Shown: one piece after another, positions 11,693-21,509 of the stretch
Layout of the letters: each line of letters opens with the position of its first letter
Numbering within the stretch: position 1 is the first letter of the stretch
DNA from: a virus
DNA: 64,000 nt
Reading direction: 5' to 3' (one strand)
Virus record (IMG/VR): IMGVR_UViG_3300038451_000147
Span: 1 to 64,000 of that record
Made by a program: the position numbers and the translations under genes
The notes under the pieces: generated by a model
The model's input: the letters and a program-made list of their open reading frames with translations, nothing else
Told to the model about the DNA's origin: nothing
The model's database searches: none

Positions 11693-11938
11693 CTAGAGCC
11701 TCAGAAGGTATTCCCAGAGGTTGTAAGTAAGGAAGGTTGTAACGGCGGCAACCAAAATGCTCTCTCCCCACAACTTCCAATCATAAGTTATGTATGCTAC
11801 ACCTACCAAAACAAGACCAAGAGCAAAAGAAAGGTAGGTGGGCGCGTGGACGAAAGTAAGTTCTATAAGACTATAGATGATACCAAACACAAAGGCAGTA
11901 GCGAGAACAAACGCATCATCGCTGTCCATGCTTCTCAA
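11693..11938 (-). CDS. Small membrane protein
   Basis: Three hydrophobic segments. Confidence 0.6.
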   Translation of the reverse strand: MRSMDSDDAFVLATAFVFGIIYSLIELTFVHAPTYLSFALGLVLVGVAYITYDWKLWGESILVAAVTTFLTYNLWEYLLRL

Positions 11939-14162
11939 CGATATGATTCAGGTAGTCTTTTTCGTATTTGTAGGCTTCAGGGCATTGGTCGCACTTGAAT
12001 GGACGTTCCTCTGCCTTCTCCATAGTCCCTTCTATCACACCCGAATCTCCTGTCTCCTTCTGATGGTTGTGTAGTTCTCTTCCAGTCGGAAACTGGCCAC
12101 CGCAACCCGCGCACCACTGCACCCGTTCCTTCTCTTCATACTTTGGCCCCTTTGTTGTATTGCACTTAGGACAATACTTTATCTGAGATTGGTTCCCTTT
12201 CGGGCCTATAGTTGCAATCTTTAATTCCGTTCCACATCTATCGCAAACCTCACCTTGTTCGGTCTTCTCTGGCTCTTTTGGGGCTTCTTCGGGTGGCTCT
12301 TCTGCTGGCTCCTCTTCAGGTGGTTCTGTTTCAGGTTCCTTTGGTTCCTCTGGTTCCTTTGGCTCTTGAGGCTCCTTGCCACCCCCGCCATCTACTGGCG
12401 TGGGTTCCTTCTCCTTTGGCTTCTCCTTGTCCTTATCTTTGTTCTTGCCCTTACCCTTCGGTGGTCTGGGCTTGGCAGTGGGCTTGGTCGTGGGCTTCTC
12501 TGGAACCTTGCCTACCCATACCTGTTCACCGTCCTTAAAGAGAATGGCCTCATACTCCTGTAGGTCTCTGAAAACCTCTTCAGGTTGGGCGAACCAATCA
12601 ATCAGAACGTCTAGGTCTTGAGGTAGGATGTGCTGGAACGTGAAGATGAAAGGCGAATTGGCCAAGATGTCCTTACTGACATCAGCCGTTCTCCGAGCCG
12701 CGAAAATGCCACCAACCCCATAGTTGCGCCCAAGGTTGACCAACTCGTTCACCATCGAACCGGGCTTGGATTTATAGCGGTCAATCTCATCCATTACCAC
12801 CATACAGTTCCCTTTTTCAAGTGCCGAGTAGATTATATCGTCTACAGTCGCCTCATCAGTCGGAGTGACTTGGTGATACTCCACATTGGAATTTCCCTCA
12901 TACTCAGAGAAGTTGCCCAAAGCATCCAAAAGGACGAACTGATAGTCCTTAAGGACATCTGAAATGAGGACTTTGATGAGGTTAGTCTTGCCCGAACCAC
13001 TCTTCCCAAGAATGGCTATCTTGTCAGAAATGTCTACCTCTATCTTGGGCATCGCCTTTGCTTTGGCTTCGACACTCTTGGGGTCAGTGCCAGCAATCTT
13101 CTGAGCCTCTGGCGACATAGGTGTTCCTTTCTCCTTCTCTTTGTCTATCTCAATGCGTGGGTCTTTGAGTTCCTCATCCAAATCACTAAAGTCTGCCCTT
13201 GCTCCTCTTCCGATACAAGCCATACAGTCTCCGCAATCGCAACCGCCTTCGTCCTCTATATCGCAACAATTAGGCCCACAATCCTCTGGCAAGTCCTCTA
13301 GAGTCGTATCGTCTATATCTCCACCCTCTTCAGGTTTGAACTGTTTCTGTATAGGTGAAATCGTCTCGGTTCCAGAAGGCATATATTGGCCTTGGCTGAA
13401 AGGCGTGACATTCTGTTGGGTAGTAGGATTCAACTGTTGAGAGGGGTCTTGCTGTTGCTGTTCCTTTTTCTTTTGAAGGTCGTATCCACAAAAGCCACAT
13501 CTCCAATGCCCTGTGTTATCGTCAACAAATCTCTCTTCCCCATAGTTTAGGTCTTTGCCACAGTCGGGGCATATGTCTCGCTCTTCCTCTTTAGAAGTCT
13601 GAGGAGTGCAAAGTCCAGACTCAATGAAGGACTGAGCCAGCCGTTGGTAGGAACCCTGAAGGTGTTCGATGACCCCTGAATCAATGAGAAACTGGACATC
13701 TACAGCCATGTCTTCTGAGGTCGGGTAGTCTTCTCCACCCTCTATCCTATTGATTATCTCAAGCACCTTCGGGTCGTAAGGCCCGGTCTCTTCAAAGGCT
13801 GTCTTGCTCTCCATCATTCCTGTTCCACCACAATACTCGCATTCATACTCTCCACCTTTGAATGGGTCTTTCCTGAACTGGTCTTTCAAGACCCCAGACC
13901 CCAGACACTTGGGGCATAGCACATCGGTTCCATCCTCTTTCTTGTCAGGGTCAATGACATCCTCATCCAACTCGTCCAGAGAATGCTCATTGTAAGGCTT
14001 GTGATGGACATCGCACTCTTCATCTCCCATCGCTTCCAGCCCTTCACTTATCGCGGGGTCGAACTCTCTACCTTCGTCTTCAAATCGGATGGGGTCTGTA
14101 GGTGAGGAGCCTACACGATGGTTTGGCCAGTCAAGGGTCTTCGTAACCGACTTGTCGGACAT
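11916..14162 (-). CDS. Acidic modular protein with several Zn fingers and a HerA/FtsK-type P-loop ATPase (start revised to ATG14162)
   Basis: GKSGSGKT, VVMDEID, LGRNYGVG; CxxC/C2H2 modules; Pro/Glu linker; TATA 25 nt upstream of AGT-ATG14162. Confidence 0.75.
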   Translation of the reverse strand: MSDKSVTKTLDWPNHRVGSSPTDPIRFEDEGREFDPAISEGLEAMGDEECDVHHKPYNEHSLDELDEDVIDPDKKEDGTDVLCPKCLGSGVLKDQFRKDPFKGGEYECEYCGGTGMMESKTAFEETGPYDPKVLEIINRIEGGEDYPTSEDMAVDVQFLIDSGVIEHLQGSYQRLAQSFIESGLCTPQTSKEEERDICPDCGKDLNYGEERFVDDNTGHWRCGFCGYDLQKKKEQQQQDPSQQLNPTTQQNVTPFSQGQYMPSGTETISPIQKQFKPEEGGDIDDTTLEDLPEDCGPNCCDIEDEGGCDCGDCMACIGRGARADFSDLDEELKDPRIEIDKEKEKGTPMSPEAQKIAGTDPKSVEAKAKAMPKIEVDISDKIAILGKSGSGKTNLIKVLISDVLKDYQFVLLDALGNFSEYEGNSNVEYHQVTPTDEATVDDIIYSALEKGNCMVVMDEIDRYKSKPGSMVNELVNLGRNYGVGGIFAARRTADVSKDILANSPFIFTFQHILPQDLDVLIDWFAQPEEVFRDLQEYEAILFKDGEQVWVGKVPEKPTTKPTAKPRPPKGKGKNKDKDKEKPKEKEPTPVDGGGGKEPQEPKEPEEPKEPETEPPEEEPAEEPPEEAPKEPEKTEQGEVCDRCGTELKIATIGPKGNQSQIKYCPKCNTTKGPKYEEKERVQWCAGCGGQFPTGRELHNHQKETGDSGVIEGTMEKAEERPFKCDQCPEAYKYEKDYLNHIVEKHGQR

Positions 14163-14200
14163 ACTAAGGTTTAAAAGGGGTTGGTTGTATATAAGCCTTG

Positions 14201-14288
14201 GGATGGGTAGCGACTTAGTGACACTCTTGCTACCACAAACAAACAAGGGCGGGTCTGTCTCGGAAGAACAGACGGTTGCTACCCATCC
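14201..14288 (+). ncRNA. Candidate ~88-nt structured small RNA
   Basis: 14-bp terminal stem GGATGGGTAGCGAC/GTTGCTACCCATCC (one G-U), internal GTCTGT/ACAGAC hairpin, TTTAAAAG 23 nt upstream. Confidence 0.45.
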
Positions 14289-14327
14289 TAAAGAATCCTT
14301 AAATAGAGCAGAACACTTACATTTACT

Positions 14328-14771
14328 GTGCCAAGTTGTCACATTTGCGGAACAGAACTAACCGAAGAGAACTGGACAGATTCCAAACGTAAGAGGCTTG
14401 AGCGTATTTGCAAGATGTGTGATGTTAAGAGAGCAAGAGCATGGCGGAAAGCCCATCCAAATGGTGCGTATCATAAGTATCGGATTGGTGCAAAGGCATA
14501 CATGAGGAACTACATGAGAGGCTATCGCCAAAAGCATCTGGAAAGGATGCAAGAACTTGGTAGACTTGAGAAGCATAGAAGGACTAGGGAACTCCCGACA
14601 TCCACCATTCTCAACAAATCCTTCAAAGGAGCGCATCTCCACCATATAACCCCTTCTGTGGCTATCTACATCCCAAAGGGGCTACATAGAAGCGTGTTCC
14701 ACAATCTGAAGACAGGAGAGGGTATGGACGAAATCAATGCTAAAGCGTTAGCATGGGCTAAATCCTTATAA
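14328..14771 (+). CDS. HNH-like endonuclease with N-terminal Zn finger
   Basis: CxxC...CxxC, then HLHHI...IPKGLH...H...N. Confidence 0.6.
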   Translation: MPSCHICGTELTEENWTDSKRKRLERICKMCDVKRARAWRKAHPNGAYHKYRIGAKAYMRNYMRGYRQKHLERMQELGRLEKHRRTRELPTSTILNKSFKGAHLHHITPSVAIYIPKGLHRSVFHNLKTGEGMDEINAKALAWAKSL

Positions 14772-18000: not shown

Positions 18001-18257
18001 TGAACGACGAAGATATTGCTGACATCAGAGTAAACATAGCGTGTATACAAAAAGACATCGAGTTCATCAAAGATAGTCTTGGTGTCTTGAATCACAATAG
18101 CACAACGATGTCAGAACGCATCAGTGCGCTTGAGACAGCCCATAAGACCACTTCAGACTACAAGGACTTTGTTAAGAAACTCGCTTCGACTCTAGGTGGG
18201 ATGGCAGTCTTCGTTGCTACCCTTCTAGCGATACTCCGTTATCTCACCATTCTCTAG
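17997..18257 (+). CDS. Coiled-coil plus C-terminal transmembrane protein (holin/XhlA-like architecture)
   Basis: Heptad region followed by a single hydrophobic helix. Confidence 0.45.
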   Translation: MMNDEDIADIRVNIACIQKDIEFIKDSLGVLNHNSTTMSERISALETAHKTTSDYKDFVKKLASTLGGMAVFVATLLAILRYLTIL

Positions 18258-18907
18258 AGGCTCTTTCTCCATCTGTAGATTAAGGCAACAAGAAGTGCTA
18301 TGAGGAACAAGGTGAGACCTATAACAAGTATGAACCAATCTGGAACAGATGTAGAAGACGCTGTAGACGGCGTGACTGTCGTGGTCACTGTCTGAATAAC
18401 CGTGTTTGTGACTACTGGCAAAGTCAGGGTTATGGTAGTTGCAACAGTCTCAATCTGAGTAACACCGATTTGGACTATCTGTATCTCAGTTTGAGTTGTA
18501 GTGACACTTTGCATTTCTGTCGAAATCTGCGTAATTGTCACTGTAATAGGTGGAAGCGTCTTTGTATGAATCTTAGTCTGGGTCTGAGTTGTGGTGACAC
18601 TTTGCGTTTGTGTCTCAGTTTGTGTGTTTGTCACCGTAACTGGAAGTGTCTCCGTTTGAGTCTGGGTCTCAGTGGTGGTGAAATTCTGAGTCTGTGTTGA
18701 GGTCTGAGTCTCGGTATTGGTCTGCGTCTGAGTCACTGTAATAGTCGTTGGTGATATTACTGTGGATGTCGTTGTAACTGTGACCGTCTTAGTTGGGGTA
18801 GTAGATGTGGTAGTAGTGCAAGCCAATACTGGTGAGAGACTGATTGATAACGCAAGAGCGATGAGCGTCAGAACTAGGGCGTAGAATGCGAGACTCTTTG
18901 ACCTCAT
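18254..18907 (-). CDS. Thr-rich cell-surface protein
   Basis: Signal peptide, TQTQT/VTTT low-complexity stalk, C-terminal TM followed by RWRK. Confidence 0.8.
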   Translation of the reverse strand: MRSKSLAFYALVLTLIALALSISLSPVLACTTTTSTTPTKTVTVTTTSTVISPTTITVTQTQTNTETQTSTQTQNFTTTETQTQTETLPVTVTNTQTETQTQSVTTTQTQTKIHTKTLPPITVTITQISTEMQSVTTTQTEIQIVQIGVTQIETVATTITLTLPVVTNTVIQTVTTTVTPSTASSTSVPDWFILVIGLTLFLIALLVALIYRWRKSL

Positions 18908-19692: not shown

Positions 19693-19729
19693 AGAGGGGA
19701 TATAGGGGTATATCCCCATATACCCCTCT
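19693..19729 (-). terminator. Inverted-repeat element 3' of the pentamer array (putative terminator or 3' hairpin)
   Basis: GGGGATATA-GGGG-TATATCCCC and the overlapping GGGGTATAT-CCCC-ATATACCCC, both perfect 9-bp stems. Confidence 0.45.
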
Positions 19730-19743
19730 CCCTTCGTGATTCG

Positions 19744-20012
19744 CATCTGGGCTTGTCTGACCTTTTCTGTGCTACTCGCCTCTCTTCTCCTCTAATGCTT
19801 GGCTTGTCTTGGCTTGGCTAGTCTATACCTTTCTGAACTATTCTGTGCTCCTCTTTTCTGATGCTAGTCTAATCTGTTCTTCTCTTTGCTTCTCTGCATT
19901 TGTCTACACCTTTCTATGCCTATCTGTTCTGCTACTTGTCTGAACTTTGCTTTTCTTCTCTTATCTTCTCTATGCTAATCTAGCCCGTTCTTCTCTCCTC
20001 TTCTGCTAGTCT
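19744..20012 (-). ncRNA. Pentamer-periodic AG(A/C)NN array, putative guide RNA(s) for the adjacent RAMP protein
   Basis: 53 units (49 pentamers, 4 hexamers). 47/53 start with AG, 52/53 have G at position 2, 45/53 have A or C at position 3; the last two bases vary. Begins inside the RAMP stop codon. Confidence 0.8.
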
Positions 20013-20574
20013 AGACTTCTTCGATGCTGAAGTGACCGAACATTGTCTTGTATGAACCAACGCCAGCGAGACCTAATCGTTGCATTGCCTCTTGAACGTG
20101 GACTCGTTTGACCGGACTCATGTATTCGATTGTTGCTTTGGTTGACCAAGGAAGTTCTAAGATGGGTCGGCAGATGAGCATTTGACTGCCCTTCTTACCA
20201 CCAACATTGATTCTGTCCCAACGAAGCGTGTATTTGCATGTTCTTGGTTCAAGAGGTAGATAGGGTTCTCGAATGGTCACAATGTTATCTTGCACAAATT
20301 TCTTCAGGGCCGTGAATCCTTTCACTTGGATTGCGCCGCCAATACCTTCTAGTCCCTTCCGTATGTTGATACTAGGGATTGCTGGACGATTTTGGAAGAA
20401 ATGGCCCTTAGACTTGATGATGGCAGTCTTTTGCGCTTCTGTGAGGTCTCGTATTCCTTCCTCTAGTTTGCTCATAGCGAATGGTATAGAAATGTTGGGG
20501 TCTAAGTTGTTCCAAATTATGGGGTCAGTGCCAATGAGTTTGAAGGTCGCTGATTCTATCGTTGTATTTGTCAA
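20011..20574 (-). CDS. Stand-alone Cas7/RAMP-like protein (Vipr-like)
   Basis: FKLIGTDPIIWNN first strand, PAIPSINIRKGL, CRP....W....IEY, and C-terminal glycine-rich loop GLAGVGSYKTMFGHF. Confidence 0.75.
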   Translation of the reverse strand: MTNTTIESATFKLIGTDPIIWNNLDPNISIPFAMSKLEEGIRDLTEAQKTAIIKSKGHFFQNRPAIPSINIRKGLEGIGGAIQVKGFTALKKFVQDNIVTIREPYLPLEPRTCKYTLRWDRINVGGKKGSQMLICRPILELPWSTKATIEYMSPVKRVHVQEAMQRLGLAGVGSYKTMFGHFSIEEV

Positions 20575-21509
20575 ATTTTTCTTTTCACCCCCTTGTGTCG
20601 AAAGGACTCAAATACGGACATCCTGTCTTGCACAAACATAATCGGTTTTGCACTTGATTGTGATGGTTTGAATCTACCAAACACAGATTTCAAGTCGGGC
20701 GTGTAGTCAACACTTCCTATTGTTCTCGATACTATGAATTTGGCTATCTCCTGTTTAGAGAGAAGAATAGGTTTACCTTCATCCATTTTGCTATCATTCG
20801 GGTAGAGGTCAAAGACAGTGAGCCTATTCAATTTGCGAATGTGCTTACTCAGAAAGTCAATCTGTCGAAGGTTTGCCTCTAAGCAAGTCCGGTTTCTTTC
20901 GTCTCTGATTCTCCGTCTCAACCTCAGAACCTCACTTCTACTAAGACCTTCATTTTCACCAAGAGTCGCTCTTCGCCACAACTCTTCTGAGAGATGGCCC
21001 TTTTCAATACCCAAGCCAAAATGGAACGCCAAATGCTCTTGACTTGCACTTACTCCCGTTCCACTACGGCCTTTGAATGGGGTCATTATGTCAATCGCTA
21101 CCTCTGGTAATCTTATTCCAAGATTGGCTCTTATTCCGTAGTCCTTGAGAGCAGTAACATCCCACTCTACGAAATGGCCAATTATTCCGTCAGAGTTTTT
21201 AAGGTATTCATAACCCAACCTAGTCAAGTCTAGAGTCGTCCTTCCGTCTATTCCCAAAACAAACTGCTTCGGCGGCTTTGCAGTGAATTTGTTGTTCTCA
21301 AATATCAACTTTTGAATCCCTATCACTAGCAAAGACTTGTCTGGTTTCCTCATCATTTCGCCGGGTGCGTATGCTTCCAAATCAACTGAAGCCAAAGTCA
21401 GTCTCTTTCCTGTCTCAATACACTCTAGAACCTTGGGACAGAAGGTCTTCTTCAGACCTGAACTCATGGATGCGACTGTCAACCCAAGCAGAAACTCCTT
21501 TGCATTCAT
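20571..21509 (-). CDS. DEDD/RNase H-like exonuclease homolog, translationally coupled to the RAMP gene
   Basis: SVDLEA (ExoI), IIGHFVEWDV (ExoII), IDIM, S.EHLA...GLG..K; ExoIII looks degenerate; 4-nt overlap with the RAMP gene. Confidence 0.6.
   Translation of the reverse strand: MNAKEFLLGLTVASMSSGLKKTFCPKVLECIETGKRLTLASVDLEAYAPGEMMRKPDKSLLVIGIQKLIFENNKFTAKPPKQFVLGIDGRTTLDLTRLGYEYLKNSDGIIGHFVEWDVTALKDYGIRANLGIRLPEVAIDIMTPFKGRSGTGVSASQEHLAFHFGLGIEKGHLSEELWRRATLGENEGLSRSEVLRLRRRIRDERNRTCLEANLRQIDFLSKHIRKLNRLTVFDLYPNDSKMDEGKPILLSKQEIAKFIVSRTIGSVDYTPDLKSVFGRFKPSQSSAKPIMFVQDRMSVFESFRHKGVKRKI

What the first reader, a model, noticed from the sequence alone, without database searches (positions are those of the whole stretch)
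19744..20012. Array is divided into four guide-sized blocks by regularly spaced 6-nt phase breaks
Seen (minus strand): hexamer units AGCAGA (20007-20002), AGTAGC (19936-19931), AGCATC (19865-19860) and AGCATT (19799-19794) occur 71, 71 and 66 nt apart. Each follows AGACT, AGACA, AGACT or AGCCA. The blocks hold 13, 13, 12 and 10 pentamers. Variable dinucleotides: block 1 GG GA AC CT TT AT GA TA GA AA AA TC CA; block 2 AC TA AT AA GT CA GC GA AA GA AC TT CT; block 3 AA GG AC AT TC AA AT CT CA CA CA CA; block 4 GG AG GG GT AC AA TC CA CC TG. Inference: the breaks are processing or filament boundaries yielding about four guides. A drifting microsatellite would not be expected to show this regular punctuation.
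Basis: partly seen in the sequence, partly recalled or inferred. Interest (0 to 1): 0.85.

Follow-up and report, generated by a model that had tools for sequence, protein, structure and literature searches.

The report
Staggered VIPR guide-RNA array in virus
The five-base repeat tract is the guide-RNA array of a VIPR system (a CRISPR-related RNA-guided DNA silencer first described in 2026), and its one-base phase breaks do mark the borders of four guides, two of which spell genes on a genomic island of a peat-soil archaeon.

Summary
On the minus strand, 20001-19739 holds 49 AG(A/C)NN pentamers. Three hexamers (AGTAGC, AGCATC, AGCATT) each shift the phase by +1, at spacings of 71, 71 and 66 nt.

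The 187-aa gene ending at the array is a Vipr protein with a Cas7-like RAMP fold. Its family profile matches PDB 36pp, "SUSP1 Vipr protein", at E 1e-36. The tract is a "staggered" vrRNA array as described in bioRxiv 10.64898/2026.04.26.720920.

- Relatives show the same 5n+1 grammar: L002 has six +1 breaks and L064 has modules of 61-81 nt.
- Each break belongs to a conserved junction, AGAC(A/T)-AG(C/T)ANN.
- Under the published 1-nt-skip rule, blocks 1 and 4 match one contig of a Nitrososphaerales genome 7 kb apart.
- Block 4 matches 20/20 nt in an integrase-like gene. Block 1 matches 20/22 nt (its L002 orthologue 22/24) in an AbrB/MazE-type gene heading restriction-modification genes.
- Skipped bases fall on codon third positions.
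- Matches begin at the first pentamer after a break and stop before the next junction.

Not shown: RNA cleavage at the breaks, and targets for blocks 2 and 3.

Local features are an AGM motif instead of GGY and no long tail. This scan has noted VIPR arrays in at least 154 other genomes. Verdict: new member of a known kind.

The parts
20571..21509 (-). 312-aa gene upstream of vipr and overlapping it by 4 nt. It is a candidate accessory (vap) gene, possibly an RNase H-like/DEDD 3'-5' exonuclease.
   Evidence: There is no Pfam hit. PHROG 'DNA polymerase exonuclease subunit' scores E 0.007. Atlas feature hits to 3'-5' exonuclease and RNase_H clusters score 0.88-0.89, which is a lead only. The AF2 model is unusable at pLDDT 41. 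Only two relatives were found.
20011..20574 (-). vipr gene: a 187-aa stand-alone RAMP (Cas7-like) protein with TTG start. Gene callers had started it at an internal ATG, giving 154 aa.
   Evidence: The AF2 model has pLDDT 91. Foldseek top hits are Csm3, Cmr4, type VII Cas7 and Cas7-11, with E about 1e-5 and probability 1.0. hhalign of its clade against the phrog_4652 clade gives 98.8% probability, E 1e-16. The family profile matches PDB 36pp 'SUSP1 Vipr protein' at E 1.1e-36. The N-terminal extension is conserved in P0004.
20002..20012 (-). Leader junction AGACT-AGCAGA. It overlaps the vipr stop codon (TAG, 20013-20011) and has the same motif as the internal junctions.
   Evidence: The identical arrangement is present in L002 (AGACT-AGCAAT).
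19931..20001 (-). Block 1 (guide 1): 13 pentamers plus the hexamer AGTAGC. The guide part is 20001-19947 (11 units). The handle is AGTTC-AGACA-AGTAGC.
   Evidence: The phase parse is. The guide matches G005:C4:68021-68052 at 20/22 nt under the 1-nt-skip rule. Its orthologue L002:808-873 matches the same site at 22/24.
19860..19930 (-). Block 2 (guide 2): 13 pentamers plus the hexamer AGCATC. The junction is AGACT-AGCATC.
   Evidence: The phase parse is. No target was found.
19794..19859 (-). Block 3 (guide 3): 12 pentamers plus the hexamer AGCATT. Its 3' part is a degenerate run, AGCCA-AGCCA-AGACA-AGCCA.
   Evidence: The phase parse is. Only chance-level matches were found.
19739..19793 (-). 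Block 4 (guide 4): 10 guide pentamers (19793-19744) plus a decayed unit, CGAAT. It has no closing hexamer.
   Evidence: The guide matches G005:C4:61075-61044 at 20/20 nt over the 10 pentamers. Homologous genes in G026 and G242 match with 2 mismatches of 22 each. It is orthologous to L002:1016-1076.
19693..19732 (-). Strong imperfect hairpin directly after the array. It is probably the 3' end or terminator of the array transcript.
   Evidence: One search shows the stem in both the MFE and the centroid structures. L002 also has a hairpin after its array, of unrelated sequence. No Rfam family matches.

Best explanation
The tract is a tail-less, 'staggered' vrRNA array of a VIPR system carried by a 105-kb tailed virus.

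Proposed mechanism:
- The array is transcribed with or after the vipr gene.
- Vipr protomers each bind one pentamer. They sequester the fixed AG(A/C) trinucleotide and expose the NN dinucleotide.
- The exposed NNs read double-stranded DNA in an NN-x-NN-x register, one skipped base per unit.
- Each block of 5n+1 nt is one guide: 10-11 guide pentamers followed by a conserved junction, AGAC(A/T)-AG(C/T)ANN.
- The extra base in the junction resets the register, ends one filament or guide, and starts the next.

Guides 1 and 4 are aimed at an integrase-like gene and at an AbrB/MazE-type gene. Both genes lie on one genomic island of a Nitrososphaerales archaeon. The likely effect is transcriptional silencing of a resident element.

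Shown: protein family, array grammar, conservation of the junctions, and the target matches and their limits.

Inferred from the published SUSP1 and P. fulva work: filament formation, silencing, and cleavage at the junctions.
For: Protein:
- It has a Cas7-like fold.
- The homology chain runs P0001 to the L064 protein (E 1e-7), to phrog_4652 (E 2e-41), to wV8 gp095. wV8 gp095 is about 98% identical to PDB 36pp, the SUSP1 Vipr.
- The profile matches 36pp at E 1e-36, and hhalign gives E 1e-16.

Array and protein association:
- It was found independently. A DNA-only pattern scan recovered L064, which carries a homologue two genes upstream of a 607-nt AG(C/T)NN array.
- wV8 and Medea1 have GGYNN blocks of about 13-14 units after their homologues.

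Grammar:
- All 9 internal breaks in the window and L002 are +1 and lie at AG(C/T)ANN.
- L064 modules are 66, 66, 61, 71, 71 and 81 nt, all 5n+1.
- Block sizes of 11-17 units compare with the published 9-16.

Literature:
- The discovery preprint gives GGY/NN vrRNAs, the 1-nt-skip rule, wobble alignment, staggered arrays and alternative repeats.
- The structure preprint gives one protomer per repeat.
- A later preprint reports non-canonical trinucleotides.

Targets:
- W4 matches 20/20 nt and L5 19/20 nt over the ten guide units at G005:C4:61044-61075.
- W1 matches 20/22 and L2 22/24 at G005:C4:68021. Only skip = 1 scores.
- The chance of 22/24 or better is 9e-12 per position, against about 2e6 tests.
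- The reversed-pattern control gave 0 of 301 genomes.
- There is no sequence homology between the island and the virus, and no self-targets.

Protein-RNA covariation:
- SUSP1 residues that read G1 (H17, D177) are N and S/T/A in the AG-type proteins.
- The G2 contacts (R138, W178) are kept as R136 and Y175.
Against: - No RNA data were available, so transcription, processing at the hexamers and RNP formation are not shown here.
- The W4 hit alone would not be significant against the whole 596-Gb genome collection. About 17 seed hits were expected and 8 were seen. Its weight comes from the second, independent guide hitting the same contig.
- Blocks 2 and 3 have no target, and three viral-collection scans found nothing beyond chance.
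- There is no long structured 3' tail like that of type II vrRNAs.
- The covariation rests on few lineages (2 GG-type, 2-3 AG-type).
- The staggered arrays of the paper were not confirmed by sRNA-seq there, and I could read only the legend of its figure S18.
Confidence: 0.88

Rival explanations
1. It is the same VIPR system, but the array is not cut. One long RNA carries several Vipr filament segments, and the extra base acts only as a register reset between them. The blocks are then functional guides without being separate molecules.
For: The junction is only about 11 nt and has no predicted structure. The purine-rich tract folds weakly. No ribozyme or known RNA family lies in or next to it. 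No dedicated processing nuclease has been identified.
Against: In SUSP1 the vrRNAs are discrete species of about 100 nt. The legend of figure S18 speaks of 'individual processed vrRNAs'. The same junction motif sits at the vipr stop codon, where it would free guide 1 from the mRNA.
Confidence: 0.1
2. It is a drifting pentanucleotide microsatellite or structural DNA repeat with no guide function, and the phase breaks are slippage scars.
For: TRF calls short period-5 segments inside it. The block 3 tail, AGCCA-AGCCA-AGACA-AGCCA, looks like local slippage.
Against: Positions 4 and 5 are near random while positions 1 and 2 are fixed. All 9 breaks are +1 and lie at one motif. The array is linked to a Vipr homologue in distant lineages. 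Two blocks match foreign coding sequence in the 1-nt-skip register.
Confidence: 0.01
3. It is a protein-binding sponge or attenuator RNA of the TRAP type, with NAG triplets spaced by 2 nt wrapped around a ring protein. The blocks would match ring size, and the sequence would not guide anything.
For: The period and the fixed AG resemble the (G/U)AG-N2-3 repeats bound by TRAP (my own knowledge, not tested here). Blocks of 11-14 units are close to ring sizes.
Against: No TRAP-like protein is encoded nearby. The neighbouring protein has a Cas7 fold. The variable dinucleotides carry matches to foreign genes, which a sponge does not need.
Confidence: 0.01

Closest known systems
VIPR systems with staggered vrRNA arrays (bioRxiv 10.64898/2026.04.26.720920, fig. 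S18 legend and type classification)
   Same: It has a stand-alone Vipr RAMP gene next to a pentamer array of fixed trinucleotide plus variable NN. Guides abut so that one ends where the next starts, with a 1-nt offset. Each guide has 9-16 units. Targets follow the 1-nt-skip rule, with the skipped base at the codon wobble position. The system is carried by a virus.
   Different: The fixed trinucleotide is AG(A/C), not GGY. The junction is a short conserved AGAC(A/T)-AG(C/T)ANN. The upstream partner gene is a 312-aa protein of unclear fold. The virus is linked to Nitrososphaerales archaea. I could not see the figure, so exact identity with the published 'staggered' layout is inferred from its legend.
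Type II VIPR of Escherichia phage SUSP1 and the P. fulva prophage (PDB 36pp; bioRxiv 10.64898/2026.04.26.720927)
   Same: The protein is homologous (profile E 1e-36). The G2 contacts, the thumb Arg and the G-loop aromatic, are conserved as R136 and Y175. One protomer per pentamer is expected.
   Different: SUSP1 vrRNAs are separate units of about 100 nt with a tail of about 40 nt and a pseudoknot. Here there is no tail. The G1-reading residues H17 and D177 are replaced by N22 and S174, which fits A at position 1. Position 3 accepts a purine, whereas the GGY pocket excludes purines.
Non-canonical VIPR arrays found by language-model entropy periodicity (bioRxiv 10.64898/2026.10.21.760802)
   Same: They are period-5 arrays with trinucleotides other than GGY (GAC, CAC, WGT, TGH), next to Vipr-like folds.
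   Different: AG(A/C) is not among the motifs named in the text. Those arrays are described as 10 repeats, not as multi-guide staggered arrays.
Class 1 CRISPR crRNA on a Cas7 backbone
   Same: It has a Cas7-like RAMP fold, periodic base displacement by a thumb, and a guide plus a conserved handle.
   Different: The period is 5 with 3 bases hidden, rather than 6 with 1 hidden. The code is gapped. There are no CRISPR repeats, no cas1/cas2 and no other cas genes in the window.

Membership tests
VIPR system | Vipr protein: a small stand-alone RAMP (RRM core, G-loop, thumb) homologous to SUSP1 Vipr | tested here: met
   The AF2 model has pLDDT 91. Foldseek hits Cas7-family chains at probability 1.0. 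hhalign gives E 1e-16 to the phrog_4652 clade. The profile hits 36pp at E 1.1e-36. P0001 alone does not reach 36pp by phmmer.
VIPR system | Adjacent non-coding tandem pentamers with a fixed trinucleotide and hypervariable NN | tested here: met
   There are 49 pentamers. Position 2 is G in 48 of 49. Positions 4 and 5 have entropy 1.9 bits. The consensus is AG(A/C), not the canonical GGY. The paper allows 'a related consensus' (NNNGG, YNNNG, NNNNG).
VIPR system | 9-16 repeats per vrRNA | tested here: met
   Window blocks have 14, 14, 13 and 11 units. L002 blocks have 17, 13, 16, 12, 12 and 13.
VIPR system | Conserved structured 3' tail after each repeat tract (type II) | tested here: not met
   Only an 11-nt junction separates the blocks, and one hairpin follows the whole array. 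This fits the tail-less 'staggered' layout of the paper rather than type II.
VIPR system | NN dinucleotides match DNA targets with a 1-nt skip, with skip bases at codon wobble positions | tested here: met
   The feature is met for blocks 1 and 4 (and for L2 and L5) on G005 contig 4. Skips of 0, 2 and 3 give background. It is not met for blocks 2 and 3, for which no target was found.
VIPR system | Accessory vap gene beside vipr | tested here: inconclusive
   A 312-aa gene is translationally coupled upstream. There are only weak exonuclease/RNase H-like leads, and the model is poor. I could not assign it to vap1-6.
VIPR system | vrRNAs expressed, processed and co-purifying with Vipr | not testable with these tools
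There are no RNA data.
CRISPR-Cas | Array of direct repeats of about 25-40 nt with unique spacers, plus cas genes (cas1/cas2 or effector modules) | tested here: not met
   No such repeats are present. No Pfam Cas families appear in the neighbouring genes.

The most novel reading that the evidence does not exclude
The virus uses its VIPR guides as an RNA-guided counter-defence against its archaeal host. Guide 1 sits on the AbrB/MazE-type gene heading a string of methylase and DpnII-like restriction endonuclease genes. Guide 4 sits on the integrase-like gene of the same island. If so, the virus silences a mobile restriction-modification island in Nitrososphaerales rather than a rival virus. It would also be the first natural-target evidence that tail-less staggered arrays with an A-G-M motif obey the 1-nt-skip code in archaea.
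Probability: 0.25. Interest if true: 0.65.

Novelty: new member of a known kind. Interest (0 to 1): 0.4.

Why it matters
VIPR is a months-old class, and its staggered arrays had not been confirmed experimentally in the discovery paper.

This locus offers several things:
- a clean natural case in which guide borders can be read from the target matches themselves;
- a minimal junction of about 11 nt to test for processing;
- a different fixed trinucleotide (AGM), with matching changes in the two residues that read the first base in the solved structure. This is a lead for how Vipr specificity is set or could be re-engineered;
- a link between an uncultured 105-kb virus and Nitrososphaerales of peat soil;
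- a hint that such guides may be aimed at host islands carrying restriction-modification genes.

It does not reveal a new kind of system.

Tried and rejected
- **Searches for relatives.** Protein-pattern scans of viral contigs with P0001, A1 and A4, and of genome contigs with A4, found no relatives. The metagenome scan gave only L002.
- **Target scans of IMG/VR (1-nt skip).**
  - Block 4, 10 NN exact: 0 hits.
  - Block 2, 9 NN: 4 hits. Block 1, 9 NN: 7 hits. None extends beyond the seed, so these are chance.
- **Target searches in Nitrososphaeria genomes.**
  - Block 2: 0 of 301 Nitrososphaeria genomes, and 0 in G005, G026 and G242.
  - Block 3: only two 3-mismatch hits, at the chance level.
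  - Block 1, all 13 NN with up to 3 mismatches in G005: 0 hits. The last two units are handle, not guide; the local scan then found the site.
- **Controls.**
  - Self-targeting in the 105-kb genome: none.
  - L002 guides against the window's genome: none.
- **Other scans.** A break-containing DNA pattern scan gave mostly chance hits, plus L137 (see noticed in passing).
- **Partner gene.** The AF2 model of the 312-aa protein had pLDDT 41 and was not used.
- **Early ideas dropped.** A TRAP-like ring-binding RNA, a DNA-level helical-phase repeat, and an origin or packaging site. They were dropped once the neighbour proved to be a Vipr and the targets appeared.
- **Rfam.** No family matched.

Full report
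**Where it is.** The window is the first 64 kb of a 105,335-bp IMG/VR virus record with direct terminal repeats. The virus is tailed: it has a portal, a large terminase and a family B DNA polymerase. The tract lies between two minus-strand genes. It starts in the stop codon of a 187-aa ORF (20011-20574) and ends before a strong hairpin (about 19732-19693). An 85-aa ORF follows the hairpin.

**The observation.** A phase-tracking parse of the minus strand gives four blocks of constant pentamer phase.
- The blocks are separated by +1 shifts at AGTAGC (19936-19931), AGCATC (19865-19860) and AGCATT (19799-19794). AGCAGA (20007-20002) lies in front of block 1.
- Spacings are 71, 71 and 66 nt, and the last block is 55 nt.
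- Among 49 pentamers, position 2 is G in 48 and position 1 is A in 43. Position 3 is A in 32 and C in 10. Positions 4-5 are close to random.
- Period-5 self-similarity is 0.55 against a genome mean of 0.253 (sd 0.038). No other place in the genome comes near.

**Relatives.**
- The only close relative of the 187-aa protein (P0004, 75% identity) lies on a 1.9-kb metagenome contig, L002.
- L002 has a longer array of the same kind right after the stop codon. It has six internal breaks, all +1, all AG(C/T)ANN hexamers, and blocks of 12-17 units.
- In both arrays the unit before the hexamer is nearly always AGAC(A/T). The real punctuation is therefore a junction of about 11 nt, and the same motif overlaps the stop codon of the protein gene.
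- Window blocks 1 and 4 are orthologous to L002 blocks 2 and 5. The other blocks differ.
- A scan of IMG/VR with a bare pattern of ten AG-phased pentamers recovered L064, among many plain microsatellites. L064 has a 607-nt AG(C/T)NN array punctuated by a 15-nt motif (AAGTTAYATCC.AAC, 16 nt with the A before it). Module lengths are 66, 66, 61, 71, 71 and 81 nt, all 5n+1.
- Two genes upstream of the L064 array sits a 194-aa protein that aligns end to end with the window protein (E 1e-7). The protein-array association was thus found twice by independent routes.

**What the protein is.**
- L064's protein belongs to phrog_4652 (E 2e-41). That family is present in Felixounavirus phages, Pseudomonas phage Medea1 and others.
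- In wV8 and Medea1 the homologue is followed by a small gene and then by GGTNN or GGYNN blocks of about 13-14 units.
- A profile of the family hits PDB 36pp, 'SUSP1 Vipr protein', at E 1.1e-36. wV8 gp095 is about 98% identical to that chain.
- The window clade aligns to the phrog_4652 clade with 98.8% probability (E 1e-16).
- The AF2 model (pLDDT 91) finds Csm3, Cmr4, type VII Cas7 and Cas7-11 as its best structural matches.

**Literature.** A search for pentanucleotide repeats in phage RNA led to bioRxiv 10.64898/2026.04.26.720920. That preprint describes VIPR systems as follows.
- A Vipr RAMP works with vrRNAs of 9-16 GGY/NN pentamers.
- The NNs read dsDNA with one skipped base per unit, and the skip usually falls on the codon wobble position.
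- There are seven types, alternative repeats (NNNGG, YNNNG, NNNNG), and 'staggered arrays' in which vrRNAs derive from positions offset by 1 nt, so that one ends where the next starts. The paper did not confirm the staggered layout by sRNA-seq.

Two other preprints are relevant. The companion structure paper (.720927) shows one protomer per repeat and names the residues that read G1 (H17, D177), G2 (R138, W178) and the pyrimidine pocket. A later preprint reports non-canonical trinucleotides (GAC, CAC, WGT, TGH). The system is therefore known, and the finding describes its staggered layout.

**Testing the guide reading.** I applied the 1-nt-skip rule.
- There is no self-target in the virus.
- Scans of IMG/VR with blocks 4, 2 and 1 gave nothing beyond chance.
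- A scan of the species-representative genome collection with nine NNs of block 4 gave 8 hits, no more than chance predicts. One hit lay in a Nitrososphaerales MAG from SPRUCE peat (L160 = G005 contig 4). There all ten guide NNs match (20/20). The site is inside a 427-aa ORF with a weak phage-integrase hit, and the skipped bases are the third codon positions.
- Among 301 Nitrososphaeria genomes the full pattern hits G005 with 1 mismatch, and G026 and G242 with 2 mismatches each. About 0.12 hits with 2 or fewer mismatches were expected. The reversed control gave 0 of 301.
- The three sites encode the same C-terminal motif, QGW(D/E)(F/Y)V(T/S)(P/T)LP, of homologous 430-443-aa proteins.

**The decisive test.** I fetched 40 kb around the G005 site and scanned it with all ten guides.
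- L002 block 2 scores 22/24, and its window orthologue, block 1, scores 20/22 over its 11 guide units. Both match at one place 7 kb from the first site. Shuffled guides reach 18-19 at most.
- The chance of 22/24 or better is 9e-12 per position, against about 2e6 position-guide tests.
- The site lies in an 86-aa ORF with an AbrB/MazE-type domain (29.4 bits, above the Pfam cut-off). That ORF is followed by a DNA methylase and a DpnII-like endonuclease gene. NN again falls on codon positions 1-2.
- The island and the virus share no sequence homology, so these are guide-target matches and not common descent.

**Where the matches start and stop.** In all four guide-target pairs the match begins at the first pentamer after a hexamer and ends one to three units before the next hexamer. 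Units of the neighbouring block do not match. This is direct evidence that the phase breaks delimit functional guides. It also shows that the last units, AGAC(A/T)-AG(C/T)ANN, are handle rather than guide.

**Why AGM instead of GGY.** In the alignment of AG-type and GG-type Viprs, the two residues that read G1 in SUSP1 differ in the AG-type proteins. H17 is Asn in all of them. D177 is Ser in the window protein and P0004, Ala in P0005 and P0006, and Thr in the L064 clade. The G2 contacts are retained (R136, Y175), in keeping with the invariant G at position 2. This rests on few lineages and is a lead, not a result.

**Open points.**
- Cleavage at the junctions is inferred and not shown. An uncut RNA with several filament segments remains possible.
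- Blocks 2 and 3 have no target.
- The 312-aa upstream gene has only weak exonuclease/RNase H-like leads.
- The host is inferred from the targets and from terminase homologues of 26-34% identity in 21 of 301 Nitrososphaeria genomes. No control class was searched. Two of those 21 genomes (G236, G288) are unpublished, and no other claim here rests on them.

**Standing.** This scan has already noted VIPR arrays, including staggered ones and ones aimed at defence genes, in at least 154 other genomes. Verdict: a real, well-supported new member of a known kind, with some local features of interest.

Noticed in passing
L137:326-587: This is another virus contig (IMGVR_UViG_3300036820_000550, 49 kb). 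It has a 262-nt AGCNN array with two +1 breaks (blocks of 104, 96 and 62 nt), flanked on both sides by tRNA-like sequence (GGTTCGAATCC T-loops). No Vipr homologue was found in the record with profile A3, but the record is only 41% complete. It may be a tRNA-processed vrRNA array or a different Vipr type.
   Followed up: partly
L064:2153-2789 (minus strand): This AG(C/T)NN array has eight modules. Each starts with a 15-nt motif, AAGTTAYATCC.AAC (16 nt with the A before it). The six spacings between the first seven motifs are all 5n+1 (61-81 nt). It lies two genes downstream of a phrog_4652 Vipr homologue and is followed by a DUF3127/SSB-like gene. Its tail length is intermediate between that of type II vrRNAs and the 11-nt junction of the window.
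   Followed up: partly
G005:C4:60100-73000 (L160, L173, L174): This genomic island lies in a Nitrososphaerales MAG from SPRUCE peat. It carries an integrase-like gene, an IS4/5-type transposase fragment, a PD-(D/E)XK nuclease-like gene, an AbrB/MazE-type gene, an N4/N6 methylase, a DpnII-like endonuclease and a Dam-type methylase. It is targeted by two guides of the window's array.
   Followed up: partly
window 18601-18750: There is strong period-6 repetition (TCTGAG-like, about 8 copies; self-similarity 0.53) inside the minus-strand ORF 18254-18907. It is probably a dipeptide repeat in a protein with no Pfam match.
   Followed up: no
window 12270-12497: A cluster of period 6, 9, 12 and 18 repeats lies inside the 808-aa HerA/DUF87-type ATPase gene (11916-14342, minus strand). 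It is probably a low-complexity linker.
   Followed up: no
window 20476-20574: The stored gene call for the Vipr protein starts at an internal ATG and gives 154 aa (P0003). The 33 residues upstream, with a TTG start at 20574, are conserved in P0004 and P0005 and form the first beta-strand of the RAMP fold in the model.
   Followed up: yes
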